Shown piece by piece: positions 13,298 to 48,902 of a DNA stretch of 64,000 nucleotides (positions within the stretch are counted from its first letter, which is position 1; each line of letters begins with the position of its first letter). The notes beneath the pieces are model-generated. The model was not told the DNA's origin, did not search any database, and saw only the letters and a list, made by a program, of their open reading frames with translations. The stretch spans positions 225,345 to 289,344 of the forward strand of contig JAKAGM010000002.1 of NCBI GenBank assembly GCA_021815445.1, written 5' to 3'. The position numbers and the translations under genes were made by a program. Source of the DNA: a bacterium. GTDB taxonomy: Bacteria > Patescibacteriota > Patescibacteriia > UBA10025.

Positions 13298-13314
13298 TAA
13301 GTTACGCGCTGCGC

Positions 13315-13604
13315 TCCGGAGTAGCTCAATGGTTAGAGCAACCGGCTGTGAACTTTAAACGCAGCTCCCGACGGAAACGTCTGGATGAACTCTCCGGGAT
13401 AACGGTGAAGGCTAAGTGCAAATGTAATTTGGATACGCTAACACCGTGGGAACCCACCTGCGCTAAAGCTTCGGTGGGGCGCCGTAGAGACTAGATACCG
13501 GAGTACCCAAAAAGCAATATGGGTAAAGATATAGTCCGTGCCGTATGGAAACATATGGAGTATACGTAACCGGTAGGTTGTCGGTTCGAGTCCGACCTCC
13601 GGAG
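13315..13604 (+). tRNA. tRNA-Asn (anticodon GUU) interrupted by a group I intron in the anticodon loop (exons 13315-13349 and 13567-13604)
   Basis: Acceptor TCCGGAG/CTCCGGA, D-arm GCTC-AATGGTTA-GAGC, anticodon stem ACCGG/CCGGT, spliced loop CTGT|TAA, variable AGGTT, T-arm GTCGG-TTCGAGT-CCGAC, discriminator G. Confidence 0.7.
13350..13566 (+). ncRNA. Group I self-splicing intron (no ORF) within tRNA-Asn anticodon loop
   Basis: 5' exon ends in U (GCUGU) that can pair with internal guide GCAGC at intron 5' end (U-G wobble), conserved R-like GAGACUAGA and S element AAGAUAUAGUCC forming P7, terminal G before 3' exon. Confidence 0.7.
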
Positions 13605-13696
13605 CATAGCGCGTAATAAAAATAGAGCATGACCCGAGAATCCCGAGGGTCAGTTTTAGGTATCTTAATTAATCATTCTTATGTGTATATACTATT

Positions 13697-29807: not shown

Positions 29808-30128
29808 TTTTGTTGAGATATTAGTAGATACGCGGGACACTTTAGTTATCGTGTCTTTGTTGGGTGCGGGAAGATCGCAGCTCCTCCGGAGGGGCTCCAC
29901 TTTTCTTTGCTTGTCCAAAGAAAAGTGGAGAGAAAAGAAAGGACAGCGTGGCGCAAACTCCCCCGTCAGTCGCGACTGACGGGGTCAGACAGTGCGCCCC
30001 GCGATGGGAGAGTGTTTTTCTGGTTTTGTGCAAACCAGCCATCTTCAAGACTGCAACATAGAAACTACCAGCGTGAACTGGTGGTAATTTATTTATTACA
30101 AACTTATTGTGGTGGTCTTCGGAGGAAA

Positions 30129-31145
30129 TTAGAGTGTTGTGATTGGTCGGGACTGTACGATATAGAATTTACCTTTTTCGAAGGCCCACTCTATGTCCTG
30201 AGGGAATTTGTAGTGTTTTTCTATTGAGAGACAAAGTGAGGCAATCTCCATTATCTGTTTGCCGGTGAGTTTTTGTTTGTCGCGCTTTACCTTCGGTACG
30301 GCGACCAGCTTTGATCCGCTCGCCCCTTTTTTGACTATCATGTCTTTTTGCGACGAGACATTAATATCGAGGATGGCGCCGGTTCTTTTGTCAAAAATGT
30401 ACGTATCGGGGGTTATCCTTCCCGAGACGATTGATTCACCTTGGCCCCATCCGGCCTCTAGCACCATCTGATCGCGATCTTTCGTCACGGGATGCGCGGT
30501 AAAAGTTATGCCTGAAATTTCAGAGCTCACCATTTTTTGGACTACGACGGCGACGGACACTTTCTGCTTGTGCATTTTTTTCTCGAAGCGGTAAAAAATT
30601 GCGCGCGGGGTAAAAAGGGACGACCAGCATGTTTTGATCATGCCCAAAAGTTTGCTGCGCGTGACGAAGAGATAGCTCTCAAGCTCGCCGGCCCATGATG
30701 CCACGGAGGAGTCCTCAGCTGTTGCTGACGAACGGACGGCGACAAACGGCGCGCCGAGCTTGTCGAAATCAGCCAGAAACTCCCCGCCCAAGTCTTCTGG
30801 AAATTTTGCCAGGCGTATTTCATCGCGGAGCTCGTGCGATGCCCTGTCAACGGATGAGATATCCTTCGGATTCACCTTGTGAAGCCACTTGTCTATCTCG
30901 ACGTCTATGTCGGTCTCCTCAATGAACCGTTCAAAAGCGTCAGCAAGCACGACGAATCCCGGCGGGACGGGGATTTTTGCCTGGGTCATTTCACCAAGCG
31001 ACGCGCCTTTACCGCCTGCTATTGCCACGTTCTTTTTTGATATTTTAGAAAAGGGGAGAGAGTAGATCATAGGACAATGATAGTATAGCATATGGCTTAT
31101 GGCGAATAGAATGCATGGAACCTGCCGGAGTTTGACGAAGGCCAT
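30129..31145 (-). CDS. Stand-alone PEP synthase/PPDK N-terminal ATP-binding (ATP-grasp, PPDK_N) domain protein
   Basis: FSKISKKNVAIAGGKGASLGEM matches PpsA N-terminal nucleotide-binding motif; 338 aa with no His swivel or PEP-binding domain. Confidence 0.75.
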   Translation of the reverse strand: MAFVKLRQVPCILFAISHMLYYHCPMIYSLPFSKISKKNVAIAGGKGASLGEMTQAKIPVPPGFVVLADAFERFIEETDIDVEIDKWLHKVNPKDISSVDRASHELRDEIRLAKFPEDLGGEFLADFDKLGAPFVAVRSSATAEDSSVASWAGELESYLFVTRSKLLGMIKTCWSSLFTPRAIFYRFEKKMHKQKVSVAVVVQKMVSSEISGITFTAHPVTKDRDQMVLEAGWGQGESIVSGRITPDTYIFDKRTGAILDINVSSQKDMIVKKGASGSKLVAVPKVKRDKQKLTGKQIMEIASLCLSIEKHYKFPQDIEWAFEKGKFYIVQSRPITTL

Positions 31146-31196
31146 GAGCCGTGATAGGGTAACTCTCCAAAACAGGGCCCTTTTCAGGAGGATAAC

Positions 31197-31679
31197 ATGA
31201 AGTTTCCTTTAGCAATCGAGCTGGTGTCATTCAGCCATGCCAACGCTGAGGCGGCTGGGGTATATCCATTCTGTTCGCCAGACAGCAGAACCTTCCAGCA
31301 CATTTTCGATGTGCGGTATTTGCCGAATCCGTTCAATGAGCCGACTCTGCGCGATTTGAACGGACTGGACAAGGCGGTGCGGCAATATGTGCTCCAAAGT
31401 CTATCGACGCACCTCTGGACCTTGATGAGCGAGGTTGTCCGCACGTTGCTCAAAAAGGCGGCAGATGAGCCGGCCGATGCCGCGCCTCTGACTGTCCGGT
31501 TCTGCTTCGGATGTACCGGCGGAAAACACAGGTCAGTCGCTCTTGCCGCAGAGTTTCACGATTGGCTGATGAACACTCACGGTGATGAATGTCTGTCTAT
31601 CTCAATCCGCCATCTGGCGCTTGAGACTCTCGGTGTCACGACACCGCCACTTGGCCAGCCCACAGGGGCAATCGTCTGA
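31197..31679 (+). CDS. RapZ (YvcJ/YhbJ) C-terminal domain-only protein
   Basis: FDVRYLPNPFNEPTLRDLNGLDKAVRQYV and FGCTGGKHRSVALAAEF match RapZ C-terminal domain; N-terminal P-loop kinase domain absent. Confidence 0.7.
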   Translation: MKFPLAIELVSFSHANAEAAGVYPFCSPDSRTFQHIFDVRYLPNPFNEPTLRDLNGLDKAVRQYVLQSLSTHLWTLMSEVVRTLLKKAADEPADAAPLTVRFCFGCTGGKHRSVALAAEFHDWLMNTHGDECLSISIRHLALETLGVTTPPLGQPTGAIV

Positions 31680-31943
31680 CCGGGTCAACAGCATGCGAAC
31701 CCGCCCATCTATCGAGATGAGGCGGTTTTTTTAACCAATCAGCGCACCCGCGCCTGCCCGCCGCAGGGCTTCGGCAGGCGGGGAGGGGTTCGCTGGGAAG
31801 TTGGTAAATTCTTTATTGGTTTAATCCAGCATGTCGGGTTGACAAATGCCCCCGCCCGTGCTAATATGCGAGGTCAAAATCGGACATTGATATCCATGTA
31901 AACACATACAACAGTCGAGCTCAGCTCGACAAGGAGGATTGTA

Positions 31944-32585
31944 GTGAGCATTATTCCAGTTCCAGAGGGGAGTTCCCGTTGCCGTATTTTGGTGCGGCAC
32001 TCGAAATCGGTCCAAGACGGACCGCAGAAGACACGAACACTCACACCCGAAGGCATCCTCCTCGCGAGGAGGATTGCACCGGCATATCGGGGCATCTTTG
32101 CCGACCTTACGGAGAGCTTCGGTGCTCCGCAATTTCGCTATAGCGGTCTCATTCGTGCCGCCCTGACAGGGTGGGAAATCTGCCACCCGCTCCAGCTCGC
32201 GGAAGATCCAAGGCTCACACTCGCAGTGAGTCTTAAGAAGATCCCCGGGGAATGGTACGCAACCCAGAAAGCTGCCGGCAGGACCGTACCGGAGATGATC
32301 CGTGCGGTGGCCGCGGATCTTTCACTCCTGGCAGGCCAGCCGATCGATCAGCGCCTCCAAGAGGTGGAGGAGTTCATGGTTGGGCGCGGAGCCGACGAAG
32401 AACACCGTTTGGTAGTGGGATTCGCCCACGAGCCTGAGCCGGGCCTCCTCGTCGCTACGCGCGGGTGGCTTACCGAAGGGGAAGCGGGTCTCAACGAGTG
32501 TGAGGCCTACATCATCTTCACCGATGAGAACCACAAGGTTCTATCAGCTTCCACGCTCATCCCCCTGGATCCTGAGGCCGTCTGA
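31944..32585 (+). CDS. Histidine phosphatase superfamily protein (SixA-like, tentative)
   Basis: ILVRHSKS (RHG-type motif) and VVGFAHEPE second His region. Confidence 0.4.
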   Translation: MSIIPVPEGSSRCRILVRHSKSVQDGPQKTRTLTPEGILLARRIAPAYRGIFADLTESFGAPQFRYSGLIRAALTGWEICHPLQLAEDPRLTLAVSLKKIPGEWYATQKAAGRTVPEMIRAVAADLSLLAGQPIDQRLQEVEEFMVGRGADEEHRLVVGFAHEPEPGLLVATRGWLTEGEAGLNECEAYIIFTDENHKVLSASTLIPLDPEAV

Positions 32586-32759
32586 TAATGGCCAGTGCTC
32601 AAAAGGGCTCTCGTTGAGTCCCGACGAGCCAAAGTACCCGAACCGCCTTTCGTTTTCGTGTTTTTCACGAGCGACTGGCGGTTCTTTTTTTACTTTAATT
32701 ATCGTTGAAAAACTAAATTATCAGAGGTATACTCAGGGTACTATATAACGCAATCATCT

Positions 32760-33668
32760 ATGCCTCGCCATTTACCAGAGCAAGGGATTTCACCCGGCCC
32801 AGAGTTCCGGGAAGCTGAGACGGAGCATCCCGCGCTTACCGTGTTTCTCATGCGGCACGGAGAGTCCGGCAAGGACAAATCATCTCCGACGCGCGGACTG
32901 ACTGACAAAGGCCGTGAACAGGTAGGCGAAAACTTCAACGGCCTTATCAACCAAATCATCAAAGATGAACTTCCTGAGTTCACCGACTTTGATGATCCTG
33001 AGAAACGCCAACAGGCCGCCCAAGAGGCACTGGGAAAAGTTGAAATACACTTAGCCGACTCCGAGACTGACAGAACCATGGAGCAGGCCTGGCAGGAGCG
33101 AGAAATACTCGCCAAGCTTGGTGTACCCCAGGAACGCATCTTTGTCTCACGCGCAGTGCAGGAATGGGCACGCAAGACCGGCCTTCTCGGACCTGAGGCG
33201 GCAGATCAGGGTGGCCCCGGCGTCAAAAGACGGCTTGTCGGAGTACAGGGAATGGATCAGGCGCCGGAATTCAGAAAACTCATCGACAACCCTGAGTATC
33301 AGGCGAAGGTGGGCGCAAGCGATGAAATCGGCGCATGGGCGCGTACCCCTGACGATGAAGTTCCTGCAGGCGTAGAAAAACATAGTGAGATGGAATCACG
33401 CATGGACAGTGATCTTGCAAAGGTCCAGAGAGTCACTGAAGGACGGCTTGCACATCACCAGCAGCGGGTTGTATATGTCGCTAACAGCCATGCTTCGATT
33501 ATCACATTGGCCGCGGCAAAGGAGCTCGGCATCCCCTTGGAAGAGCTTGGCCATGTGGATAATGCCGAAGGACTCCGGATGGATTTCTATGGATCCGGAA
33601 AAAAGAGAGAGGTGACGCCTTTCGGGAAAAATCTTGAGGCAAAGGCAGCAAGCTTAAAGCAGCAGTAG
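32760..33668 (+). CDS. Histidine phosphatase superfamily (PGAM-like) protein
   Basis: LMRHGESG catalytic motif, later ANSHASIITL. Confidence 0.55.
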   Translation: MPRHLPEQGISPGPEFREAETEHPALTVFLMRHGESGKDKSSPTRGLTDKGREQVGENFNGLINQIIKDELPEFTDFDDPEKRQQAAQEALGKVEIHLADSETDRTMEQAWQEREILAKLGVPQERIFVSRAVQEWARKTGLLGPEAADQGGPGVKRRLVGVQGMDQAPEFRKLIDNPEYQAKVGASDEIGAWARTPDDEVPAGVEKHSEMESRMDSDLAKVQRVTEGRLAHHQQRVVYVANSHASIITLAAAKELGIPLEELGHVDNAEGLRMDFYGSGKKREVTPFGKNLEAKAASLKQQ

Positions 33669-33687
33669 TCTGTCGGGACTGTGTGAG

Positions 33688-35805
33688 TTACCGAAGTTTT
33701 TTTACCGTCCCGTGATATCCATCCACTTCGATGATGTCCCCGTCTTTTATCAAAAGCGTGGATATACGAAGTCCAGTGACGCAGGGGATACCCGCTTCAC
33801 GGGCGAGAGTAGCAGGATGGGAGGTAACACCGGTGCCGCCGTCTGCGACCAAACCGGCTGATTTCTGAATCGCCGTGGAAAAGCTGGGTACCGCCTGCAC
33901 AGTGACGATAATATCGCCGGGTTTGACTTTTGACAGCTCGTCGAGGTTAATGACGAGTTTCGCGGGTCCTTTGGCGCGACCTTCGGACACCGGGGTGCCG
34001 TGCAATATCTTCCACGTCGAAGGAATCTGCAAGAGGTTTTTTTTGATATGCTGAGCTTTTTTACCTGTTGTCACGGTTATCTTGCCATGCGTCGCAGTGT
34101 ACAGCGCAAGATTGTATCTCTCGCGGAGGATGTGTGAGTAATCTCGTCCTTTCACGAGCGCCTGGTACGGTTCCTCGCGGAGACACTGACGGAGGTGGAT
34201 GAGCGGGATCGCCAGACGGCGGGAATACTCGAACAGTACGGTATCAAAGTGGTAGAGGGACAGCGAAACAAACCGCTTGCGAAACTCTTTCAGGTAGATA
34301 CCGTCGCGCATTGCCGCGAAAATTTTTCGCTCTATGGGGCGCAGATGGCACGCTCTCTCGGCAAGTGAAACTCGCTCGACGGCATCTGCGTGGAAACGCT
34401 CGATTCTTTGGATGTTCGCCTGGATATTGCCGCGCTTGAGTATGCCCTGCAAACGGAGAATAAAGTCTTTTGGCTCCCAGACCGGGTCCTCGTAGTCGCG
34501 CGTGATCCAAAAGAACTTTTTGCAGTGCGCGCGGAATTTTCGGGCGAATCCCGGATACCTACCTAAAAGTTTTTCGATTTCCTCCGGCTGTTTTTTCAGC
34601 AACTCTCTCAGCGAACTCGAAGATTGTACGTATGCGGCGAGGGTATAGAGTCCTTTTTCTTCCTCCTTAGGGTACATTGCACGCGTATTTGTCGTCAGCA
34701 TGGTGAAGTAGCGTTGGCGCTGTTCTGAGGAGGAGACTTTAAGGAACAGGAGTCCTTTGAGGTAGCTGTACAGCTGTTTTTCGACTGTCAAAATAGTAAA
34801 ATACGGGCCATACATACTTCTGTAGAGATCAGCGTACTTTTGGTAAAGAAGCGCCAAAGCTGTCGGGCTCATGTTGCGCAGGTTTTTTCTCGCTGTGTGC
34901 TGAGCGAAAGCGACGAGCTTCGTGCCCTGCTTCCTGACCCGTGCAATGATGTGCAGGAAAAATTTGGGATCATCTAAAATCTGGCCCAGGATGTTTTGAG
35001 CGGCAAGATACGCATGCTCCTTGTCGGCAAAAAACCACAACATCCGTTTTTCAAGCATCGCAGTGAGGGGGAAGTAGTGCTTGGCAATGTCAGCGGTGAT
35101 CGTTGTAACGGCTTGCAATGAAAAAACATTTGGCAATGGGCTCATGCGCTGCCGCTGGGAGAGTTCCTGCCATTCGTGATGCGGCCTCCGCCACTTCTTC
35201 CCGAGAATTCTGATGACTTCACGTTCGCACTGTTGAAATGTTTTATAGAAAATGCAATGCACGCCCATTTTTTTCGGCACGATGAGATTTTGTTCCTGGT
35301 CCTCAATAAACAGAATTTCGTCCGGCCGCACATCGAAGCGTGCACATATCCACTCCATGGTTTCTTTGCTGGCTTTTGGCAGCCGTAGTTCCTGCGTGTT
35401 TACCGCATTGTCGAAATGCATCCGAAAGTGTAGACGATCTTCTTTGTATTCGAACCACTGGATGAGGTTTTTACTCAGGATAACGCAAGGATATCCCTCG
35501 AGTCTAAGCTGCTTGACCATGTTGATTGCCGGGGGGTTAAACTGTTGTTGGTCGAGGTGCCACTGGCGCATAGCTCTCCAGTCCTGTTTCCATCCAAGCT
35601 CTTTGATCGGCCGCTGCCATCCTTCGACCTCGGAGATCTTGTTTTCGGCGATCATGTTGAAATATTTGGTATACAGAATGTCATACACCTTTTTCCAGGG
35701 AGTGTGGTGAATCCTGCCGAAATGTTTTGCCGTGCTCTTGTGATCTCCGAGGATGACAACCCCGTTGAAATCAAAAAGGATGAGTTTTATCTTAGGATGT
35801 TTCAT
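33688..35805 (-). CDS. PEP-utilizer swivel-domain paralog 1 (705 aa): HAD-like N-terminus + helical region + C-terminal phosphohistidine domain
   Basis: N-terminal LILFDFNGVV (HAD motif I-like); C-terminal GGTGVTSHPATLAREAGIPCVTG..DGDIIEVDGYHGTVKKL. Confidence 0.7.
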   Translation of the reverse strand: MKHPKIKLILFDFNGVVILGDHKSTAKHFGRIHHTPWKKVYDILYTKYFNMIAENKISEVEGWQRPIKELGWKQDWRAMRQWHLDQQQFNPPAINMVKQLRLEGYPCVILSKNLIQWFEYKEDRLHFRMHFDNAVNTQELRLPKASKETMEWICARFDVRPDEILFIEDQEQNLIVPKKMGVHCIFYKTFQQCEREVIRILGKKWRRPHHEWQELSQRQRMSPLPNVFSLQAVTTITADIAKHYFPLTAMLEKRMLWFFADKEHAYLAAQNILGQILDDPKFFLHIIARVRKQGTKLVAFAQHTARKNLRNMSPTALALLYQKYADLYRSMYGPYFTILTVEKQLYSYLKGLLFLKVSSSEQRQRYFTMLTTNTRAMYPKEEEKGLYTLAAYVQSSSSLRELLKKQPEEIEKLLGRYPGFARKFRAHCKKFFWITRDYEDPVWEPKDFILRLQGILKRGNIQANIQRIERFHADAVERVSLAERACHLRPIERKIFAAMRDGIYLKEFRKRFVSLSLYHFDTVLFEYSRRLAIPLIHLRQCLREEPYQALVKGRDYSHILRERYNLALYTATHGKITVTTGKKAQHIKKNLLQIPSTWKILHGTPVSEGRAKGPAKLVINLDELSKVKPGDIIVTVQAVPSFSTAIQKSAGLVADGGTGVTSHPATLAREAGIPCVTGLRISTLLIKDGDIIEVDGYHGTVKKLR

Positions 35806-36887
35806 AGCCTTATTACTATACCATGAGTCGCGTCAACCTCGACACGGTCGCCATCTTTGAGAACTTTTGTTGCAATTTTCGTACTTATCACGCAAGGAAT
35901 TTTTAATTCCCGGGAAACAATCGCGGCATGGCTTAGCATTCCGCCGCCTTCGTCGGTGACCAGGCCTTTGATCCGTCTCAAAAATGGTATTTGGTTAGGA
36001 TGGGTCATGGGGACGACAAGGATTGGGTTCCGCGGCCAAGAAGTTCTTCTGATTCGTTTTACCACCGTGCCGATAATTCGACCGGGTGATGTGGTCGTAC
36101 CGTGCAGTGCATTCACGCCAATGTATTTACGTCCCTCGGCAAAGTGACGTCGGATTGTGGCAAGCGCTGAATGTCCGCTTTGGATAAACTCTTTCCCGTT
36201 AACATAGAGGTATGCGTAGCCGGAAGCTCTTTTCACCAAGGTTTTCTTTGGAACGGCTAGTTTCGCTGCTGTGAGTGTTTTTCTTAGTTCAGACCGCGTC
36301 ATCATAAGGAGGAGCCGAGCAGGGACATGTATTTTTCTCCCAAAACTTTGTATCGCACGGACAATAAGTTTTTCGCATCGGGGATAAATTTCCGCGAGCT
36401 TGTTGCGTTCCACTGACAACGCGCGAAGGCCTTTTCTGGGGAAACGCGGCATATCTTCCGCGGCAAACTCCAGGTAACGCCAGAAAAGATTAAACCCGCC
36501 GATGCCTCCCATGTACCGGGGGTACTCAGCAATGACAAAGCGCAGAAATCGCTCAGGGTCAGTTTGAACGAGTAGGGAGTACTCCTCGAGTTCCTTTTCA
36601 AACCTTTTACACGCTTGAGCTGCGCGTAACCTTGTACGGCTGACCCATGCCGGGTCGCGGCGGATTCTTTGTGCAACGTTCCGAATTACGAGGTCAATAT
36701 CGTAAAACGTGTGCATTGCCCTTGCGTCTCCTAATGCGCCTGACGGGCCATAGGTGAGGTCGGAAATATTCCTGCATAAGTTTCCATAACCCTCAGCGAT
36801 GCAGCTTTCGGTGAAAAGAGGAAGCTTGCGGTACACGCCGCCTCGCAAGGAAAAGTGGTACCTGACAATTGCTGTTGAGACATCCAT
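35802..36887 (-). CDS. PEP-utilizer swivel-domain paralog 2 (361 aa)
   Basis: C-terminal TSPGRIIGTV..DEGGGMLSHAAIVSRELKIPCVISTKIATKVLKDGDRVEVDATHGIVIRL; 4-nt overlap with paralog 1. Confidence 0.7.
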   Translation of the reverse strand: MDVSTAIVRYHFSLRGGVYRKLPLFTESCIAEGYGNLCRNISDLTYGPSGALGDARAMHTFYDIDLVIRNVAQRIRRDPAWVSRTRLRAAQACKRFEKELEEYSLLVQTDPERFLRFVIAEYPRYMGGIGGFNLFWRYLEFAAEDMPRFPRKGLRALSVERNKLAEIYPRCEKLIVRAIQSFGRKIHVPARLLLMMTRSELRKTLTAAKLAVPKKTLVKRASGYAYLYVNGKEFIQSGHSALATIRRHFAEGRKYIGVNALHGTTTSPGRIIGTVVKRIRRTSWPRNPILVVPMTHPNQIPFLRRIKGLVTDEGGGMLSHAAIVSRELKIPCVISTKIATKVLKDGDRVEVDATHGIVIRL

Positions 36888-36890
36888 GTT

Positions 36891-37475
36891 TCAATCAATT
36901 AATCCAAGTTTGAGGTGTTTATTAAAGCCAGACCATTTCCATTTGGATGGATATTCGACGAGACTGTGTTTAACCGGGTTGTGGTGGATGTATTCGATAT
37001 GCCGGTTGAAGTCCGTCTGATTGCGGATTACATGGTCATGGAAGGAAGTTTGCCATATTTTATGACCATGCATCTTTTTATGATGATCAGGCTCGAAAGC
37101 CTGATCTGCGGTTAGGGAAATATGTTTTTCGGTTTGCGATTTATTCTTCCCGCCCCACCGTAGCTCATGCTTTCGAGCATGAGCAATCCCGATGCCATAA
37201 TCTTGATTGAGCATCCAGCTGAAGTTGCCCTTGATGCTTTGCATTATCTGCGAAATGTTCTTCTTTCCAATAACTGCAACCAGCAGGTGAAAATGATCCG
37301 GCATGATTACCCACGCAAAAAGGTTAATATATTTCTCCTTTACTTGGTAGTTGATACAATTCAAGAGTAGAGCCGCCTTTGTTGGATCATTAAAAATTTT
37401 GGCATTCCGAAACGTCTTGCTGGTTACAAATACATATCGGCTCTCCTCGTCATAATATCTTTTTGGACGAGGCAT
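36891..37475 (-). mobile_element. IS200/IS605-type Y1 HUH transposase (RAYT-like), 194 aa
   Basis: YVFVTSKTFRN...WVIMPDHFHLLV HUH motif and C-terminal conserved Tyr region (HHNPVKHSLV). Confidence 0.6.
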
Positions 37476-37480
37476 AATGA

Positions 37481-38701
37481 CTAAATCTTTCTCACAATCC
37501 CTTTTGTAGCATCGACCTCCACTCGATCACCGTCCTTGAGCACCTTGGTCGCAATTTTTGTACCGACAATGCAGGGAGTCTTGAGTTCACGGGCCACAAT
37601 TGCCGCGTGCGCCGTCATACCGCCCTCGTCGGTAACAATAGCGGCGGCTTTGCGAATGGCTCCCATGAGCCAAATAGTGGTCATGGGGGAAATAAGTATA
37701 TCGCCTTTTTTCATTTTTTTCTGATCCGATCGAGTAACCACAATCTTCACCGTTCCCTCGACTTTGCCCGGGTGCGCTGTCGTGCCGGCTATATGGGAAG
37801 GATGTTCCACCTGAACGGGCTCCACGTGCAGCCGGAAATACTGTCGCGCATGTTTTCCGGAGAGGACTCGCCATTTCCCACGCAGCATCTCAATGATGAA
37901 AAAATCTTTTCTGCGTTCAATCTCCTGGGGAGACAATCTGTGGCCTTTGAAATATCGGCGCAGAGAAGCCACGTCGTACCAGATGAGGTCTTTGGAAGTT
38001 TCCCGGGGAAGGAGGACATGGAGCTGGGAGATGAGCAGGGTATAGATCTGATCAGCGATCCGTTCCCCCGCCTCGTAAAAATAAGTAAACCATCGGAGGA
38101 TTTCGACAGCCTCCCTGGCGGTACCGGTGAGCTTCAATCTCCGCATAAGTCGCGTATACTCGCGTTCGGCAGCTTGATGGGTGGTGCGTATCTTTTGAAG
38201 TATCCCCGCTACCGGCTGTGGGGCAGAGAGTACCGAGAGAGCGTGGTCAACCTTGTTTGCAGGCAGTTTCCTCGCAAGGGCCGCCCGTACCTGGCGTGAG
38301 ATGGAAGGTTCACCCCAATATCCATAGAAGATTGCCCCGCGAGCGTGGGAGAGGTGCGTGAGGTATATTGAGAACGTTTTTGCAAAGTTTTTCGGCGTCA
38401 ATCGGTGTGAACGCTGGATCCGGGTCCACCGGTGCGCCGCCTCGAGGTATTGTACAATTTGCCTGGCCATGCGTTGTATTCGCACGCCAGAAAATTCCTT
38501 CGCGATAATTGCGCGCTGCCGTGCGTAATCATCCTGCAAGTAGTACAGCGAGGTAATATTCCCCTCGCCGACAATGAGCGTGTTTGAAATGGAGGCCTTG
38601 CCAATTTCTCGGATGCTTCGATGGTACGATAACACACGCAATGATCTATCAAGCAGGGTGTTTTCACGTGTGAGTTGTTTAACCCAACGCACCTTTTTCA
38701 T
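37481..38701 (-). CDS. PEP-utilizer swivel-domain paralog 3 (406 aa)
   Basis: C-terminal TAHPGKVEGTV..DEGGMTAHAAIVARELKTPCIVGTKIATKVLKDGDRVEVDATKGIVRKI. Confidence 0.7.
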   Translation of the reverse strand: MKKVRWVKQLTRENTLLDRSLRVLSYHRSIREIGKASISNTLIVGEGNITSLYYLQDDYARQRAIIAKEFSGVRIQRMARQIVQYLEAAHRWTRIQRSHRLTPKNFAKTFSIYLTHLSHARGAIFYGYWGEPSISRQVRAALARKLPANKVDHALSVLSAPQPVAGILQKIRTTHQAAEREYTRLMRRLKLTGTAREAVEILRWFTYFYEAGERIADQIYTLLISQLHVLLPRETSKDLIWYDVASLRRYFKGHRLSPQEIERRKDFFIIEMLRGKWRVLSGKHARQYFRLHVEPVQVEHPSHIAGTTAHPGKVEGTVKIVVTRSDQKKMKKGDILISPMTTIWLMGAIRKAAAIVTDEGGMTAHAAIVARELKTPCIVGTKIATKVLKDGDRVEVDATKGIVRKI

Positions 38702-40317
38702 GGTAGTTTTTTCACGATTCCTTTCGTTGCATCAACCTCCACACGGTCGCCATTTTTAAAAATGTCCGTTGCAACTTTCGTACCGATTACGCAAGGGATC
38801 TTAAACTCGCGCGAAACCACTGCGGCATGAGAAGTAATGCCTCCCTCGTTTGTCACAATTGCTCCCGCTTTACGACAGGCGGCAATAATTTCGGGACGCG
38901 TCTGCCCAGCGACTAGTACTTGCCCTTTTCGCATAGCGGCAATCTGTGGAAGGAGGGGCAGATCGTAGGTGAGTACTTTTACCCGGCCAACAAATTTACC
39001 GGGCGAGCCGACTTCGCCGTGTACTTCGTTTGACTGGTGAGCCTGCGTATGAGACTGGACGAACCGGGCGAGCCTCGTCGCCGCTCTCCCTGTGGACAAA
39101 TACAGCCGATAATCACGCATGTGGATAACATACAACGATCTACGCATTCTGATACTTTGAATGTCGGGCCTTTTCTTTTTTTGCAAAAACTGAAGCAATT
39201 CGGTTGTAAGACAGTAATGGGCATCTTCCGCCTGCAGGCCGACTCGTCGTCCGATTTCCGCATAGAGCGGCAAACTATAGTACATTCCCCGCGTCCATGT
39301 GAAACGAATCACAAAACGCAAATGAGCGTACTCCTGGAGCATGCGAAAAAGCCAGCGGTAGTGGAGAGGCAGAGGATATCGTTTTAAAAGCCGCGCATTT
39401 TCACGCTTTGTCCGAGTTTGAGCTACGCGTGTTTGACGGAGCTTTGCACTGAGCTCTGTTGTCGGTAGCCGAAGCAACGCGATGCACTTGTCCGCAACAT
39501 CATCCATCGAGTAGTCAATCAGGTTGCTATCGGCATTAATCCATGCAAACCGCTTTTGATGCCTGTTCAGAGCTTGATAAATCGTGGGAGCCACGCATTT
39601 CAGCATTTGCAAAAAACTCCCACTTTTTACACTCTTTAGCAGCTTGCGGGATCCAGAGAGTCGTCGCATCTTTATTACGAGCGCGATGAGCCCCGCATCT
39701 TCATCCTGAAACTCGAAACGCTTCACCGGCCGGGAAAGAAGCCGCAGGATCTCTTCACGTTTTTCGGCCTTCGCAATATTGACTCGTAAATAGGAACGAA
39801 TGTGTTCTTCGACCTTGCTAAAGTACCAGGGAGCTGTGGTTTGAAAACGTCCATAAACCTCTGTCAGGGCAGCGAAATAACGCTTGGCAAATGAATGTAA
39901 TGCCGTCGTGCTAAGTTCAGCCAGATTTGTTCTTTGTGCCGTGTGGATCATCGCTGCCATCTGATCCAAGACAATTCGCGTATCTCGGATGTCGGAGCTT
40001 ACAAAGCGGCGATTTGTGAAATTCCGGAACCCTGCCGACGGCATCACTTCAAGATCCTGCTCGTTCATGTACGCTTGGATTTTGTTTTTCTTCACTATGA
40101 AGTAAAAATCACGCGAGCCCGCCCCATGGATGCGTTTGTTCCATAACGTATTGCCCCACGCGGCGATCTCCGTGCGAATTATGTAATTTCGAACTTCGAA
40201 CAGCCTTTTATACAGCTGTTTCGACATATTAGACTGTCTCGATTTTTTTAGATCCTGTAGACGTATTCTCGACTCGCATACCAGATAGCGTTCCCGGGCG
40301 GGTAGCGATGCGCGCAA
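38698..40317 (-). CDS. PEP-utilizer swivel-domain paralog 4 (539 aa)
   Basis: C-terminal GSPGKFVGRV..NEGGITSHAAVVSREFKIPCVIGTKVATDIFKNGDRVEVDATKGIVKKL. Confidence 0.7.
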   Translation of the reverse strand: MRASLPARERYLVCESRIRLQDLKKSRQSNMSKQLYKRLFEVRNYIIRTEIAAWGNTLWNKRIHGAGSRDFYFIVKKNKIQAYMNEQDLEVMPSAGFRNFTNRRFVSSDIRDTRIVLDQMAAMIHTAQRTNLAELSTTALHSFAKRYFAALTEVYGRFQTTAPWYFSKVEEHIRSYLRVNIAKAEKREEILRLLSRPVKRFEFQDEDAGLIALVIKMRRLSGSRKLLKSVKSGSFLQMLKCVAPTIYQALNRHQKRFAWINADSNLIDYSMDDVADKCIALLRLPTTELSAKLRQTRVAQTRTKRENARLLKRYPLPLHYRWLFRMLQEYAHLRFVIRFTWTRGMYYSLPLYAEIGRRVGLQAEDAHYCLTTELLQFLQKKKRPDIQSIRMRRSLYVIHMRDYRLYLSTGRAATRLARFVQSHTQAHQSNEVHGEVGSPGKFVGRVKVLTYDLPLLPQIAAMRKGQVLVAGQTRPEIIAACRKAGAIVTNEGGITSHAAVVSREFKIPCVIGTKVATDIFKNGDRVEVDATKGIVKKLP

Positions 40318-40939
40318 AGTCAGCGCGTGCTAACTCGAGGATTTGATTGTCACCGAGTTGTTCGCCCTCATGCTGCATTGCCATGTCGATGAAACGGGAA
40401 AACATGCCGTGAGTAACAAATGCGGGATTCGCACGCGTCTGTGTCCGAATACGCCGCATAAACTTGAGGAAACGTTCAGCGCGCCGGTACACATCGACAA
40501 TACTTTCGTCCACGATTTTCCCGTTAAAAAGATTCTCCGTGAACATCCGGCGAACTGCCTGCCAATCAGGAGCCGCGTCGTACATCTCGCGGCTAATGCC
40601 GTCCATAGATGGATGTACTTCATGGAGCAGGTCTGTAGGTCGCAAATCAGCTGAGAGATGAGCCTCCTCGGCCAAAAGCTCCGCGGTTTGTTTCCCCCTC
40701 AAGGCAGTCGAGTGCATGATGACATTAATATCGTTCGTTTTAATTTCTCCTCGTGACAGCTTATCTTGCAAAATTTGTCGACTCGCTTCTACATCGATCG
40801 GCGGATCAATCGTTCCCTCGATATGCTGGACAGCCACCTCGTAAGGGGGTTTCTGATTCCGTTCGATCATCGCACTCAAATTCTCGATCATGCCATGACG
40901 AAGGATGTCGGCTTGCAGGGATTCACGTTCGTTTCTCAT
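40229..40939 (-). CDS. Histidine phosphatase superfamily (PGAM-like) protein
   Basis: ILRHGMIEN N-terminal catalytic motif, FVTHGMF second His motif; ORF 3' end overlaps paralog 4 start region. Confidence 0.55.
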   Translation of the reverse strand: MRNERESLQADILRHGMIENLSAMIERNQKPPYEVAVQHIEGTIDPPIDVEASRQILQDKLSRGEIKTNDINVIMHSTALRGKQTAELLAEEAHLSADLRPTDLLHEVHPSMDGISREMYDAAPDWQAVRRMFTENLFNGKIVDESIVDVYRRAERFLKFMRRIRTQTRANPAFVTHGMFSRFIDMAMQHEGEQLGDNQILELARADFARIATRPGTLSGMRVENTSTGSKKIETV

Positions 40940-40953
40940 AGATAATAGATAGT

Positions 40954-41946
40954 TTAGTTAGCCCTCCGTGCCGTGGCTCGTCTTTTTACTATACCATTAA
41001 AACCGCTGCTGTTCACAGTTTGCATGTAGCGGATGACTAGCGGAAAAAATTGCTCATGCAAACCCCTTGTTACAGCAAGTGAGATTACCCGTCTGGTATA
41101 CAGAAAGTAACATAAGAGCAGGTGACAACTCACTGCATTCACGAATCCTCGCTGTAGAAGTAACCGCTCACGCAGCGTCAATGGTCGGTACCGTTCATAC
41201 CCGGCCAGTAATGCTTTGATACGGGCAGGAACAATTTTACCATGGTGTGAACATTGGCGCTGAAGCGCCTTGCCAATCTCGAGTATATACGGACCGATGT
41301 GAGCGAAGTCAAAGTCAATAAGTCCCACCAGCCGATTACCCCGCACTAAAATATTGAGCGGTTTAGGATCAAGATGGATAGGCCCGTGGGGCAGATCAGT
41401 AGGCAACGTGCTTAATTGCGCAGCTGATCGGACTGCTAGGTACTGTTGTCGCAAATCACTGGGCAACTTCGGATACACTGTCCGGTTAAACCAGCGAATC
41501 TTTTTCGGCGTAAAAAGATGCGTCAGAGGTTCGCGGTTAGAACGGAAAGTAAACGAGCGGCCAAGACGATGCATGCGCCCGAGGAGACCGCCGAGCTGGC
41601 GCAGCAACGACAGCGACAGCGTTTGTTGGTGATGGCCAACAATATACCTAAACACGATATACGACGAACCCTGATGCCGGAGGATAGCTTGCCGGTTTGG
41701 CAAGTGAACCACCCGGGGCACCGGTAAAGGCTTGAGGTGGTCGAGGAGTCGCACTTCAAAGGCCAGTTTCCTAGATTCTCGTAGACAGCGACGAACCACA
41801 AAATGACCTTTAGGTGTCACAATCATCCAGCTGTCATTGATAAACCCCTTCTTTAAACTACGATGCGACAGCACGAGTTCGAGCCCATACTGAGATGCAA
41901 TGAATTGAAGGAGTTGCCGAGTTTTTTGTCTATTGAATGTTTCCAT
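40954..41946 (-). CDS. APH/HSK2-like phosphotransferase (protein-kinase-like fold small-molecule kinase)
   Basis: HGPIHLDPKPLNILV catalytic loop and LIDFDFAHIG (DFD) motif. Confidence 0.6.
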   Translation of the reverse strand: METFNRQKTRQLLQFIASQYGLELVLSHRSLKKGFINDSWMIVTPKGHFVVRRCLRESRKLAFEVRLLDHLKPLPVPRVVHLPNRQAILRHQGSSYIVFRYIVGHHQQTLSLSLLRQLGGLLGRMHRLGRSFTFRSNREPLTHLFTPKKIRWFNRTVYPKLPSDLRQQYLAVRSAAQLSTLPTDLPHGPIHLDPKPLNILVRGNRLVGLIDFDFAHIGPYILEIGKALQRQCSHHGKIVPARIKALLAGYERYRPLTLRERLLLQRGFVNAVSCHLLLCYFLYTRRVISLAVTRGLHEQFFPLVIRYMQTVNSSGFNGIVKRRATARRAN

Positions 41947-41956
41947 ACATGAACGA

Positions 41957-43027
41957 CTACAGTTTTTTAATCACTCCTTTTGTTGCATCCACTTCTACTC
42001 GGTCACCATCTTTAAGCACCTTTGTCGCAATTTTGGTGCCGACGACGCAAGGTATTCGCAATTCCCTAGAGACTATAGCCGCATGGCAGGTGATACCTCC
42101 TTCATCGGTAATGATAGCGCGCGCTTTTCGAATAGCAACAATACAATCCGGATCAGTCATCTGGGTCACGAGAATTTCTCCGGCTCGGAACGCGCCAACC
42201 TCTTTTTCTGAAAAAATGAGTCTCACTTTGCCCCGCAGAGGTTTGGCACGATAGGAAGGTGTCCCATGTATACCTTTACCCGTCCCTGAGGGTTCCGTAA
42301 AAAAGTAGCCATGCTTTTGGAAAAGACTAGGCATATCCCTTGTAAAAACAAGTTTTCCGTCGATGAGCACGTACCCATGTCGCCGGCGAGCGATAGCAGG
42401 GGCCGAGGGAATGATGTTTGACTTTAGCAAAGCTTCCACCTCACTTTGTAACAACAATGCTGGATCCCGGCTGATTCCGAGCTCCTTCAGCCGCAGAAGC
42501 GTGCATGCTTTGACGAAGTTTGAAAACTCTTTCATGAGCCCCTCAGAATATACCCTATTCACATACAATCTCCGGAGGACTGGGTTCGCTTTTTTTCCAT
42601 AAGTTGACTTGTATACGTCTGCCCACGGTCCGGGAAGAAAGAGAGACAGCGTATACCAAAGGTAAATATTCTCGAGAATTCCGCGCACCTGAGAATATGT
42701 TTTCCACAGGTCGTTATCTTTCAATTTCCTCCCCATGAGTTTCCGCATTCTTCGTACTTGTTTCCGGAAGCTTTGACTGGCTGCTGCGGCATAGAGACGG
42801 TGATCAGGGGGAATAGACACCACTCTTTTTTTCATTTCCTCGACATTTTTAAGCAAACGAAAAAATCTCTGACTTCTGCCGTCATATGCGGCAATTTGGT
42901 CTTTAAAATGAACGTGCAGAGACCTATTAAGAACACCGAGTATCAAAACTTTACGCCAGTAGTCGGCGAGAAAGAGTCTGTATGGCCGGGTAAAGGTTAG
43001 TGTGAGTTCGAGAGGTCGGGGTGGCAT
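41957..43027 (-). CDS. PEP-utilizer swivel-domain paralog 5 (356 aa)
   Basis: C-terminal DEGGITCHAAIVSRELRIPCVVGTKIATKVLKDGDRVEVDATKGVIKKL. Confidence 0.7.
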   Translation of the reverse strand: MPPRPLELTLTFTRPYRLFLADYWRKVLILGVLNRSLHVHFKDQIAAYDGRSQRFFRLLKNVEEMKKRVVSIPPDHRLYAAAASQSFRKQVRRMRKLMGRKLKDNDLWKTYSQVRGILENIYLWYTLSLFLPGPWADVYKSTYGKKANPVLRRLYVNRVYSEGLMKEFSNFVKACTLLRLKELGISRDPALLLQSEVEALLKSNIIPSAPAIARRRHGYVLIDGKLVFTRDMPSLFQKHGYFFTEPSGTGKGIHGTPSYRAKPLRGKVRLIFSEKEVGAFRAGEILVTQMTDPDCIVAIRKARAIITDEGGITCHAAIVSRELRIPCVVGTKIATKVLKDGDRVEVDATKGVIKKL

Positions 43028-43054
43028 ACCTTGTACTATTAAACTTCAAGCCTT

Positions 43055-44272: not shown

Positions 44273-44276
44273 ACAG

Positions 44277-48864: not shown

Positions 48865-48902
48865 TGGTCGTCGTTTGGGTTGCGGCGATTTTTTGAGCTG
48901 TC

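What the first reader, a model, noticed from the sequence alone, without database searches (positions are those of the whole stretch)
31197..33668. RapZ C-terminal-domain-only protein and two histidine-phosphatase-superfamily genes at the head of the swivel-domain cluster
31197-31679 matches only the C-terminal domain of RapZ/YvcJ (DVRYLPNPF..LRDLNGLDK, GCTGGKHRSVA) and lacks the N-terminal P-loop kinase domain. It is divergently transcribed from the stand-alone PPDK_N gene. Immediately downstream are two proteins with RHG-type histidine phosphatase motifs (ILVRHSKS/GFAHEP and LMRHGESG/NSHAS). A third such protein (ILRHGMIEN/VTHGMF) sits inside the array at 40229-40939. Because the array is built around phosphohistidine swivel domains, co-clustered phosphohistidine/phospho-substrate phosphatases and a RapZ-like domain (a phospho-sugar/RNA-binding kinase-like fold) suggest a regulated phosphorylation-dephosphorylation module rather than a random neighbourhood.
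Basis: partly seen in the sequence, partly recalled or inferred. Interest (0 to 1): 0.55.

Follow-up and report, generated by a model that had tools for sequence, protein, structure and literature searches.

The report
Phosphatase trio heading a dikinase array
Three small genes (a RapZ C-terminal domain with no kinase half, a SixA-like histidine phosphatase and a second, capped histidine phosphatase) sit at the head of a Patescibacteria gene cluster with one ATP-loading enzyme and nine phosphohistidine-carrier proteins; the two phosphatases are kept there in every related genome examined, which points to an undescribed built-in phosphate-removal/control layer for this phosphotransfer system.

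Summary
31197-31679 encodes a complete RapZ C-terminal domain with no P-loop half (Pfam 2.6e-21; E. coli RapZ 1e-12; CTGGKHRSV identical).

The neighbourhood is not random. In 16 distinct loci, nearly all labelled Patescibacteria, a stand-alone ATP-grasp gene lies beside a histidine phosphatase from one of several families. The conserved 300-aa phosphatase and an array of swivel-domain genes accompany it wherever the contig reaches. RapZ_C occurs in only 4 loci, in a slot that elsewhere holds a histidine kinase/response regulator pair.

The three genes are separate transcription units.

Best reading: accessory phosphate-draining and sensing parts of a one-to-many version of the two-component dikinases (HpeHI, PpsAB). 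Whether they reset carrier phosphohistidine or hydrolyse products is undecided. I found no description of this cluster. It is a new variant of a known kind, of moderate to high interest.

The parts
30129..31145 (-). Stand-alone ATP-grasp (PPDK_N) protein, the HpeI/PpsB-like nucleotide-binding component. The likely true start is M26 at 31070, which gives 313 aa.
   Evidence: Pfam PF01326 at 7.7e-95 covers residues 42-337. It matches only the first ~330 positions of the PEP synthase / rifampin phosphotransferase models. Orthologues in other loci are 314-332 aa and 63-77% identical.
31197..31679 (+). RapZ C-terminal-domain-only protein (160 aa). It carries the anion-binding loop C106-TGGKH-R112-S113, a CX5R(S) pattern.
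   Evidence: Orthologues of 44-49% identity lie at the same position in L001, L002 and L003.
31701..31732 (+). Intrinsic terminator after the RapZ_C gene: a hairpin followed by U7.
   Evidence: Folding gives -15.6 kcal/mol, z = -3.7, and 0 of 200 shuffles fold as well.
31839..31867 (+). Promoter-like site (TTGACA, 17 nt, TAATAT, with an upstream TG) for the SixA-like gene.
   Evidence: The block is conserved in the equivalent intergenic regions of L001 and L003, even though the gene downstream there belongs to a different phosphatase family.
31914..31930 (+). Perfect palindrome/hairpin GTCGAGCTCAGCTCGAC, 13-14 nt before the start codon of the SixA-like gene.
   Evidence: It occurs once in the window. 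The shuffle control is weak: 21 of 100 shuffles give at least one match when 2 mismatches are allowed. The same 15-mer occurs exactly once in each RapZ_C-bearing locus and in no other locus.
31944..32585 (+). HP-A1: SixA-like histidine phosphatase (213 aa, GTG start) from a family with no Pfam or NCBIfam model.
   Evidence: R18, H19, R71, H162 and E163 are present.
32640..32691 (+). Intrinsic terminator after HP-A1: a long hairpin followed by U7.
   Evidence: Folding gives -26.8 kcal/mol, z = -5.1, and 0 of 200 shuffles fold as well.
32705..32733 (+). Promoter-like site (TTGAAA, 17 nt, TATACT) for HP-B. The resulting leader is short and has no Shine-Dalgarno sequence.
   Evidence: HP-B lacks an SD in all loci inspected.
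32760..33668 (+). HP-B: divergent histidine phosphatase (302 aa) with an ~105-aa helical cap. It is the most constant marker of the cluster after the ATP-grasp gene.
33688..35805 (-). HAD phosphatase fused to the first swivel-domain protein, convergent with HP-B. In other loci the HAD and this swivel protein are fused or adjacent.
35802..50501 (-). The rest of the array: eight more proteins with a substrate-domain plus a C-terminal phosphohistidine swivel domain. Interspersed are an IS200-like Y1 transposase, the third histidine phosphatase, an APH-family kinase and an aminotransferase.
   Evidence: All nine swivel domains keep the catalytic His.
40229..40939 (-). HP-C: conventional His_Phos_1 protein inside the array. 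It abuts the start of the next swivel gene.
   Evidence: Pfam at 1.7e-10. Weak NCBIfam matches to CobC, GpmB and PspA.

Best explanation
The three genes are accessory phosphate-handling parts of a locus found almost only in genomes labelled Patescibacteria. That locus is a one-to-many version of the two-component small-molecule dikinases.

1. One ATP-grasp protein (30129-31070) loads a phosphoryl group from ATP onto the conserved histidine of nine different carrier proteins. Each carrier has its own substrate-binding domain plus a swivel domain.
2. Facing that array, two catalytically intact histidine phosphatases are always kept next to the single shared ATP-grasp gene.
3. I propose that they drain phosphoryl groups out of the system.
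4. The small SixA-like enzyme (31944-32585) would reset the phosphohistidine of the swivel carriers, as SixA does for NPr and Ndk.
5. The capped enzyme (32760-33668) would hydrolyse a phosphorylated ligand or intermediate that is common to the whole system.
6. The RapZ C-terminal-domain protein is an optional sensor or regulator. It keeps RapZ's phosphate-binding pocket and occupies a variable 'regulatory slot' that holds a histidine kinase/response regulator pair in another lineage.

Shown: the folds, the catalytic residues, the conserved gene order and the separate transcription units.
Inferred: the direction of phosphoryl flow, the substrates of both phosphatases, and any role of RapZ_C.
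For: Context:
- The PPDK_N gene lies within a few kb of every HP-B gene fetched (13 of 13).
- The swivel array follows HP-B in all 11 loci whose contig extends that far.
- A further histidine-phosphatase-like gene sits beside HP-B in every locus.
- HP-A1 homologues retrieved independently are always beside PPDK_N.

Catalytic competence:
- HP-B has an invariant RHG, R105 and H244, and its model has the histidine-phosphatase fold.

A shared target is plausible:
- All nine swivel domains keep the GG-x-T-S/C-H-A-A motif and have near-identical C-terminal ends. Their N-terminal domains differ.
- There is one HP-B per locus whatever the array size.
- PPDK_N and HP-B are the most conserved proteins of the locus.

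Precedents:
- Split ATP-grasp plus swivel dikinases exist: HpeHI, CreHI and PpsAB (PMC12167813).
- SixA drains phosphohistidine from NPr and Ndk (PMC7948535, PMC12934123).
- The product phosphatase of the Hpe pathway is a HAD enzyme (PMC9618137). A HAD domain is already present in this cluster, which leaves the histidine phosphatases free for another job.

RapZ_C:
- Pocket residues T248, G249, H252 and R253 and the essential C247 are all conserved.
- In L007 the same slot holds HK + RR genes.
Against: - No experiment and no interaction prediction links any of these proteins to a swivel domain.
- Both phosphatases have insertions over the active site, small in HP-A1 and large in HP-B. SixA lacks such a cap, and caps usually shape small-molecule pockets. 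HP-B's top structural hit is an acid phosphatase.
- The histidine phosphatase superfamily is mostly made of small-molecule phosphatases and mutases.
- The HP-A slot is filled by unrelated subfamilies in close relatives: A1 in the window but A2 in L003, although HP-B is 81% identical. This fits an exchangeable substrate-specific enzyme better than a fixed partner of the carriers.
- 9 of 51 HP-A1 family members lack the nucleophile His in the alignment.
- RapZ_C is absent from 12 of 16 loci, so it cannot be essential to the system.
- H190 of the RapZ pocket is Phe here.
Confidence: 0.4

Rival explanations
1. Pathway phosphatases. HP-A, HP-B and HP-C are ordinary small-molecule phosphoesterases. 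They remove the phosphate that the dikinases put on their substrates, after an intermediate step as in the Hpe and Cre pathways or as a salvage or detoxification cycle. RapZ_C is a phospho-metabolite-binding protein that senses such a product.
For: - In the Hpe pathway a dikinase, a transforming enzyme and a phosphatase are clustered (PMC9618137).
- Both phosphatases have cap insertions.
- HP-B's best structural match is prostatic acid phosphatase.
- The HP-A slot swaps between subfamilies, as expected for substrate-specific enzymes.
- The array also holds an aminotransferase and an APH kinase, which suggests small-molecule chemistry.
- The RapZ C-terminal domain binds GlcN6P in E. coli (PMC9841335).
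Against: - There is one HP-B for up to nine or more different carrier proteins.
- HP-B is far more conserved than the substrate domains of the array.
- A HAD phosphatase, the class used in the Hpe pathway, is already a constant member of the cluster.
- HP-A1's nearest structure is a protein phosphohistidine phosphatase.
Confidence: 0.33
2. RapZ_C is an RNA-binding post-transcriptional regulator of the cluster. Like the E. coli RapZ C-terminal domain on GlmZ stem-loops, it binds the conserved hairpin in the leader or terminator next to its own gene and controls expression of the neighbouring phosphatase. The phosphatases then act as in either model above.
For: - The C-terminal domain of E. coli RapZ alone binds RNA, and its phosphate pocket contacts the RNA backbone (PMC5737377, PMC9841335).
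- The palindrome TCGAGCTNAGCTCGA occurs exactly once per locus, and only in the loci that carry RapZ_C, always in the RapZ_C/HP-A intergenic region.
Against: - Only three independent lineages are available, so covariation cannot be tested.
- In L003 the motif is part of the RapZ_C terminator rather than the leader of the next gene.
- The C-terminal tail here has no basic residues. Established knowledge of E. coli RapZ places RNA-binding Lys/Arg residues in that tail.
- There is no Rfam match in the region.
- H190, which is needed for GlmZ binding, is Phe here.
Confidence: 0.12
3. Phosphoryl acceptors rather than drains. The histidine phosphatases, whose own catalytic His is phosphorylated during turnover, or the Cys of the RapZ_C loop, receive the phosphoryl group from the swivel histidine and pass it on as part of a relay or as primed mutases.
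For: - Histidine-phosphatase-fold mutases work through a phospho-His enzyme (established knowledge of dPGM).
- In RapZ, C247S is inactive and 'a specialised catalytic function' of the thiol was proposed (PMC9841335).
- CxxGxxRS is invariant in all cluster RapZ_C proteins, including a divergent paralogue.
Against: - There is no precedent for phosphotransfer from a swivel His to this fold.
- RapZ_C is absent from most loci.
- Nothing computed here bears on the direction of transfer.
Confidence: 0.08
4. The association is not functional. The genes are neighbours by descent in one small clade and have independent housekeeping roles.
For: - The genes have separate promoters and terminators.
- Base composition is like that of the housekeeping genes of the window.
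Against: - The order is kept across loci whose proteins have diverged to 42-47% identity and whose flanks differ (T4SS-like genes, Suf genes or LiaF/PspC genes).
- HP-A1 and HP-B homologues were never found outside this context.
Confidence: 0.04

Closest known systems
RNase adapter protein RapZ (YhbJ/YvcJ), C-terminal domain (Pfam PF22740; PDB 5o5s, 5o5o)
   Same: - It is the same domain from its first strand to its last helix.
- It has an identical GCTGGKHRSV loop.
- The pocket residues T248, G249, H252 and R253 and the essential C247 are conserved.
- Like rapZ, which sits between ptsN and npr or next to crh/HPr (seen directly in L021/L022), it is encoded beside phosphohistidine-carrier genes.
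   Different: - It has no N-terminal P-loop domain anywhere nearby.
- It scores 75.8 bits against the 244-bit RapZ cut-off.
- H190 is Phe.
- It has an 8-9-residue insertion after the first strand.
- It has a different, non-basic, conserved C-terminal tail (LETLGVxxPPxGQxxG).
- There is no GlmY/GlmZ-type RNA nearby.
- Its neighbours are a dikinase array, not PTS, yvcK or whiA genes.
SixA phosphohistidine phosphatase (PDB 1ujc; TIGR00249)
   Same: - It has the RH nucleophile motif, the S-x3-R-x3-T motif and a second His.
- SixA-like Alr0221 shares the GHEP-type second motif.
- SixA's known job is to drain phosphohistidine from carrier proteins downstream of a swivel-domain enzyme.
   Different: - HP-A1 is about 50 aa longer and has a conserved insert (SLKKIxGxW...QP) over the active site.
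- It gives no significant sequence match to the SixA model.
- Its activity and substrate are untested.
- HP-B matches the SixA model only weakly (17.7 bits against a cut-off of 74.5) and carries a large cap.
Two-component small-molecule dikinases HpeHI, CreHI and phenylphosphate synthase PpsAB (relatives of rifampin phosphotransferase)
   Same: - The ATP-grasp protein is separate, and a second protein carries the substrate-binding and His-swivel domains (PMC12167813).
- The window's ATP-grasp and carrier proteins match the corresponding parts of the RPH/PEP-synthase models.
- A phosphatase is encoded in the same cluster (HpeD).
   Different: - One ATP-grasp gene serves nine carrier genes instead of one.
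- The cluster has dedicated histidine-phosphatase-fold genes (two to three), not only a HAD enzyme.
- It has an optional RapZ_C.
- It is found in reduced Patescibacteria genomes and has no aromatic-catabolism genes.
Cys-X5-Arg-(Ser/Thr) phosphate-binding loops of protein tyrosine/dual-specificity phosphatases and the phospho-Cys loops of some PTS EIIB domains
   Same: The pattern C-x2-G-x2-R-S is invariant in all cluster RapZ_C proteins and in RapZ. It forms an anion pocket from backbone amides plus Arg. The Cys cannot be replaced by Ser.
   Different: The resemblance is at motif level only and comes from my own knowledge of those families. The RapZ C-terminal domain has a phosphofructokinase-like fold. 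No phosphatase or phospho-acceptor activity has been reported, and I could not test structural similarity.

Membership tests
RapZ (NCBIfam NF003828, RNase adapter RapZ) | N-terminal P-loop (Walker A/B) kinase-like domain | tested here: not met
   The match covers only model positions 178-268. The protein starts at the domain boundary. A RapZ N-domain HMM finds nothing in the window or in L001-L019.
RapZ (NCBIfam NF003828, RNase adapter RapZ) | Whole-protein score above the curated cut-off | tested here: not met
   75.8 bits against a cut-off of 244.
RapZ C-terminal domain (Pfam PF22740) | Domain match above the gathering score | tested here: met
   76.5 bits against 27, E = 2.6e-21. E. coli RapZ CTD 5o5s matches at E = 1.3e-12.
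RapZ C-terminal domain (Pfam PF22740) | Sulphate/malonate pocket residues H190, T248, G249, H252, R253 and the essential C247 | tested here: inconclusive
   C, T, G, H and R of CTGGKHRS are conserved. The H190 equivalent is Phe46. Among 94 RapZ homologues in which the flanking motif could be found, this position is H in 57, Y in 19 and F in 18.
RapZ C-terminal domain (Pfam PF22740) | Binding of GlmY/GlmZ-type RNA or GlcN6P | not testable with these tools
   There is no Rfam family in the region or the window apart from a tRNA and a group I intron.
Histidine phosphatase superfamily, branch 1 (Pfam PF00300), for 31944-32585 | Sequence match to the family model | tested here: not met
   There is no Pfam or NCBIfam hit at E <= 0.1. 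A family profile reaches PGAM5 only at E = 0.007.
Histidine phosphatase superfamily, branch 1 (Pfam PF00300), for 31944-32585 | Fold, plus the catalytic Arg-His...Arg...His set | tested here: met
   [not shown]
Histidine phosphatase superfamily, branch 1 (Pfam PF00300), for 32760-33668 | Sequence match, fold and catalytic residues | tested here: met
   [not shown]
SixA phosphohistidine phosphatase (TIGR00249) | Score above the family cut-off | tested here: not met
   HP-B scores 17.7 bits against 74.5, and HP-A1 has no hit.
SixA phosphohistidine phosphatase (TIGR00249) | Dephosphorylation of a phosphohistidine protein | not testable with these tools
   Only structural proximity and genomic context are available.
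Two-component small-molecule dikinases (HpeHI/CreHI/PpsAB) | Separate ATP-grasp protein, plus a protein with substrate-binding and His-swivel domains that keeps the catalytic His | tested here: met
   The definition is from PMC12167813.
Two-component small-molecule dikinases (HpeHI/CreHI/PpsAB) | One ATP-grasp component paired with one carrier component | tested here: not met
   The window has one PPDK_N gene and nine swivel genes. Related loci have six or more.
Known anti-phage defence systems (PADLOC) | Match of any cluster protein to a defence model | tested here: not met
   Eight of nine proteins gave no hits. The APH protein gave one negligible hit at E = 0.005.

The most novel reading that the evidence does not exclude
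The RapZ C-terminal domain is not primarily an RNA or sugar-phosphate binder. It is a Cys-dependent phosphoryl-handling module, with an invariant CxxGxxRS loop and a thiol that cannot be replaced by Ser. Its ancestral partners are phosphohistidine carrier proteins. In this cluster it works free of the kinase-like half, accepting or removing the phosphoryl group of the swivel histidines alongside the SixA-like enzyme. That would explain the old, unexplained linkage of rapZ with ptsN/npr and crh.
Probability: 0.1. Interest if true: 0.85.

Novelty: new variant of a known kind. Interest (0 to 1): 0.6.

Why it matters
Split dikinases are known as one-to-one pairs in aromatic catabolism. Here a single ATP-loading enzyme appears to feed many carrier proteins, and the genome keeps two dedicated histidine phosphatases right beside it.

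If these reset the carriers, this would be a second system besides the PTS/SixA pair in which enzymatic phosphohistidine removal controls a swivel-domain phosphotransfer chain. It would lie in organisms with very small genomes, where nine-plus paralogues are a large investment.

The locus also yields two phosphatase families that current profile libraries miss or barely detect. It yields a naturally isolated RapZ C-terminal domain as well. That domain offers a clean handle on two open questions: what the conserved pocket and essential cysteine of RapZ do, and why rapZ travels with phosphocarrier genes.

If instead the enzymes are plain product phosphatases, the finding is a useful annotation of a Patescibacteria-specific metabolic cluster but not a surprise.

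Tried and rejected
- Pfam and NCBIfam on 31944-32585 gave nothing relevant.
- The word-indexed homologue search for it found only itself. The exhaustive phmmer search was needed.
- BLASTP between the 213-aa protein and the gene in the same slot of L001 showed no similarity.
- hhalign between the two slot families gave only 3-4% probability. I therefore treat them as separate subfamilies of one superfamily, not as orthologues.
- The HP-B profile against PDB sequences gave only a weak SixA-like N-terminal match (E = 0.11). Fold comparison was needed.
- Rfam in permissive mode on 29500-34000 found nothing.
- PADLOC found no defence family.
The 6-sequence alignment gave 4 loci, of which 2 were new.
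- Other 'RapZ_C-only' database proteins were checked as possible further examples. P0113 and P0062 are frameshifted full-length rapZ genes in the rapZ-yvcK-whiA-HPr context. P0019 is a genuine stand-alone copy in an unrelated context.
- Horizontal acquisition of the head genes was considered. Their GC (0.55-0.60) is within the range of housekeeping genes of the window, so there is no support for it.
- Literature searches for this cluster, or for swivel arrays in the Candidate Phyla Radiation, found nothing.
- The 4-cresol pathway paper (PMC4813557) is not held.
Full report
**1. What is there**

The region 30.1-50.5 kb of the window is one gene cluster in a chromosomal stretch. DnaG, RpoD, SufB and LytB lie nearby. 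Most relatives are labelled Patescibacteria.

On the minus strand, 30129-31145 encodes a protein that is only the ATP-grasp (PPDK_N) domain of the PEP synthase / rifampin phosphotransferase family (Pfam 7.7e-95). It matches the first ~330 positions of those models. Its orthologues are 314-332 aa and the domain match begins near residue 28-42, so the real start is probably M26 at 31070.

From 33688 to 50501, also on the minus strand, lie nine genes. Their products end in a PEP-utilising 'mobile' (swivel) domain (PF00391, 1e-16 to 1e-26). All nine keep the catalytic His.

Interspersed are four other genes or domains:
- a HAD domain fused to the first swivel protein;
- an IS200-like transposase;
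- a His_Phos_1 protein (40229-40939);
- an APH-family kinase and an aminotransferase.

The finding concerns the three plus-strand genes between the ATP-grasp gene and the array.

**2. The RapZ_C-only protein (31197-31679)**

- Pfam PF22740 matches at 2.6e-21.
- The NCBIfam RapZ model matches only positions 178-268 of 278 and far below its cut-off, at 75.8 against 244 bits.
- The best solved relatives are the E. coli RapZ chains (1e-12), with GCTGGKHRSV identical.

In an alignment with full-length RapZ proteins, the protein begins exactly at the first strand of the C-terminal domain. It has an 8-9-residue insertion after it. It ends in a conserved non-basic tail that full-length RapZ lacks.

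A model built from 33 RapZ N-terminal halves finds nothing in the window or in any related locus. The gap to the ATP-grasp gene is about 126 nt. This is therefore a genuine stand-alone domain, not a truncation.

Four of the five residues of the E. coli sulphate/malonate pocket are kept. H190 is Phe here. Among RapZ homologues in which the flanking motif could be found, this position is H in 57, Y in 19 and F in 18. C247 is also kept. In E. coli its replacement even by Ser kills RapZ, and the authors suggested 'a specialised catalytic function' (PMC9841335).

Across all cluster-type RapZ_C proteins, including a divergent second paralogue (CERGIQRS), the invariant core is C-x2-G-x2-R-S-V-A. I note that this is the CX5R(S/T) pattern of Cys-dependent phosphatases. 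That comparison is from my own knowledge and was not tested structurally.

Most other 'RapZ_C-only' entries in the databases are fragments or frameshifted rapZ genes. One other genuine stand-alone copy exists in an unrelated context.

**3. The two head phosphatases**

The 302-aa protein (HP-B, 32760-33668):
- It barely passes Pfam His_Phos_1 (25 bits against 21.7, C-terminal part only). It has a faint SixA-like N-terminal match.
- Its 26 homologues (43-83% identical, all about 300 aa) keep R32-H33-G34, R105 and S243-H244 invariant.
- An AlphaFold model built on that alignment is confident (pLDDT 87.8, pTM 0.85).
- A helical insertion of about 105 residues forms a cap.

The 213-aa protein (HP-A1, 31944-32585):
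- It has no Pfam or NCBIfam hit. The indexed search found only itself.
- An exhaustive phmmer search found 64 representatives, nearly all of 190-245 aa.
- In 51 of them R18 (48/51), H19 (42/51), R71 (38/51), H162 (42/51) and E163 (49/51) are conserved.
- The family profile hits only histidine phosphatases in the PDB (PGAM5 0.007; SixA-like 0.12 and 0.18).
- The model is very confident (pLDDT 96.4).

The third protein (40229-40939) is an ordinary His_Phos_1 member (1.7e-10).

**4. Transcription units**

The three genes are not an operon.
- RapZ_C is followed by a hairpin plus U7 (-15.6 kcal/mol, z = -3.7).
- HP-A1 is followed by a longer hairpin plus U7 (-26.8 kcal/mol, z = -5.1).
- Promoter-like sites with 10 of 12 matches precede HP-A1 (31839-31867) and HP-B (32705-32733).
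- HP-A1 and RapZ_C have strong Shine-Dalgarno sequences. HP-B has none, in any locus.

**5. Conservation of the neighbourhood**

I fetched loci in three ways:
- through RapZ_C homologues;
- through HP-B homologues;
- through HP-A1 homologues.

I annotated them with HMMs built from the window's proteins. After removing near-duplicates there are 16 distinct loci.
- Every HP-B gene (13 of 13) has a stand-alone PPDK_N gene within a few kb, divergently oriented.
- Wherever the contig continues (11 of 11), an array of swivel genes on the opposite strand follows.
- A HAD gene or domain accompanies the start of the array in most loci.
- A further histidine-phosphatase-like gene lies beside HP-B in every locus. 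It is usually between PPDK_N and HP-B, but it belongs to different subfamilies. The A1 type, as in the window, occurs in 7 loci. A clearly His_Phos_1 'A2' type occurs in 5 (Sts-1/PhoE 1e-8). Other RH...SP-R...HG proteins occur in 3.
- Close relatives can differ in this slot. L003 has A2 although its HP-B is 81% identical to the window's, and the promoter block upstream of the slot is nevertheless conserved.
- RapZ_C is present in only 4 of 16 loci: the window, L001 and L002 (two paralogues each), and L003. All are in the subclade with the most similar HP-B.
- In L007 the same position holds small ORFs plus a histidine kinase and a response regulator. In L011 and L019 it holds a membrane protein.
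- The flanks outside the cluster differ: T4SS-like genes in several loci, Suf genes in L005, and LiaF/PspC-like genes here.

Against the window, PPDK_N is 63-77% identical and HP-B 42-81%. HAD is 32-64% and RapZ_C 44-49%. The N-terminal domain of the first carrier protein is barely alignable.

**6. What the cluster works like**

Separate ATP-grasp and 'substrate-binding plus swivel-His' proteins are the defining feature of the two-component small-molecule dikinases HpeHI, CreHI and phenylphosphate synthase. These are relatives of rifampin phosphotransferase (PMC12167813).

The window's carriers match the C-terminal 100-350 positions of the rifampin-phosphotransferase-like models. The difference here is the ratio of one ATP-grasp gene to nine carrier genes. 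The swivel domains are near-identical and the N-terminal domains are diverse. This implies one shared loading enzyme and many substrates.

**7. Role of the head genes (inference)**

Three facts favour a system-level role over a substrate-level role.
- There is one HP-B per locus whatever the array size.
- HP-B and PPDK_N are the best-conserved proteins.
- The nearest structure of HP-A1 is a phosphohistidine phosphatase whose known targets are carrier or intermediate phosphohistidines (NPr, ArcB, Ndk).

The product phosphatase of the characterised Hpe pathway is a HAD enzyme (PMC9618137), and a HAD domain is already a constant member here.

Other facts point towards small-molecule substrates.
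- Both phosphatases have active-site insertions that SixA lacks.
- The HP-A slot is exchangeable.
- The superfamily is dominated by small-molecule enzymes.

I therefore give the 'phosphohistidine reset / flux control' model 0.40 and the 'pathway phosphatase' model 0.33.

For RapZ_C the safest statement is this. It is an optional phosphate-pocket protein in a variable regulatory slot. An RNA-binding role is possible. It is hinted at by a palindrome that occurs once per locus and only in RapZ_C-bearing loci, but that rests on three lineages.

The parallel with the PTS is worth stating. rapZ lies between ptsN and npr in proteobacteria and next to crh/HPr in Firmicutes (seen directly). SixA drains NPr, and Enzyme I carries the same swivel domain. 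Here a RapZ domain, a SixA-like enzyme and swivel proteins again sit together in an unrelated lineage.

**8. Novelty and verdict**

I found no description of this cluster, or of these two phosphatase families, in the searchable literature. No known defence family matches.

Each protein belongs to a known superfamily, and the overall logic has precedents in dikinase-plus-phosphatase clusters and in the SixA/PTS pair. The one-to-many dikinase array with two dedicated histidine phosphatases and an optional free RapZ C-terminal domain is, however, an undescribed arrangement. I rate it a new variant of a known kind, with interest 0.6.

Noticed in passing
window 31915-31929; L001 10644-10658; L003 8856-8870: The perfect palindrome TCGAGCT-N-AGCTCGA occurs exactly once in the window, 14 nt before the HP-A1 start. 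It also occurs once in each other RapZ_C-bearing locus whose intergenic region was fetched, and in none of the loci without RapZ_C. In L003 it forms the RapZ_C terminator stem rather than the leader of the next gene. It may be a binding site for RapZ_C or for another regulator. Only three lineages carry it.
   Followed up: partly
window 31839-31943 compared with L001 10560-10671 and L003 9000-9116: The promoter and leader upstream of the 'HP-A slot' are conserved between loci, although the gene downstream belongs to different, non-alignable histidine-phosphatase subfamilies. This looks like gene replacement behind a fixed promoter.
   Followed up: partly
window 32734-32759 and the equivalent regions of L001, L003, L005, L007, L011: The HP-B gene has a short AT-rich leader with no Shine-Dalgarno sequence in every locus inspected. 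The neighbouring RapZ_C and HP-A genes have strong AGGAGG sites.
   Followed up: no
window 13314-13606: A tRNA gene appears to be interrupted in its anticodon loop by a group I intron (Rfam RF00028, 54 bits, E = 6.5e-11, at 13346-13558). tRNA-like acceptor and T-arm sequences flank the intron, and ARAGORN did not call the gene.
   Followed up: partly
window 36891-37475: An IS200-like Y1 transposase gene (PF01797, 5.7e-12) sits inside the swivel array on the same strand. At 0.417 it has the lowest GC of the 22 genes compared.
   Followed up: no
window 35802-50501 (C-terminal ~30 codons of each swivel gene): Several swivel proteins end in almost the same sequence (GTKIATKVLKDGDRVEVDATKGI/V...), although their N-terminal domains differ. 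This suggests gene conversion or strong constraint from a shared partner.
   Followed up: partly
L007 5657-8774 (also L008, L014, L024): In one lineage the head of the cluster carries a duplicated HP-A1 gene and a PPDK_N fragment. These flank three small ORFs, a GAF/PAS histidine kinase and a stand-alone receiver protein, in the position where the window has RapZ_C.
   Followed up: no
L001 1-8275; L002 1-8258; L003 1-7149; L007 1-3489: In four lineages the ATP-grasp gene is followed on its own strand by a conserved unknown 460-550-aa protein and a set of type IV secretion-like genes (PrgI-like, TraC-like, VirB4/TraG-type ATPase, pilin-like). The window lacks these here and has PspC/LiaF-like and GNAT genes instead.
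   Followed up: no
L015, L017, L019 (labelled uncultured Gammaproteobacteria) and L018 (labelled Pirellulales): Four loci with the same cluster come from bins labelled as non-Patescibacteria. Either the contigs are mis-binned or the cluster is not restricted to Patescibacteria.
   Followed up: no
window 48-1973 and 3291-4493: A superfamily-1 helicase-like protein (AAA_11/AAA_12) and a SIR2_2-domain protein flank a tRNA-Ser gene at the start of the window. This may be a defence or mobile island and is unrelated to the finding.
   Followed up: no
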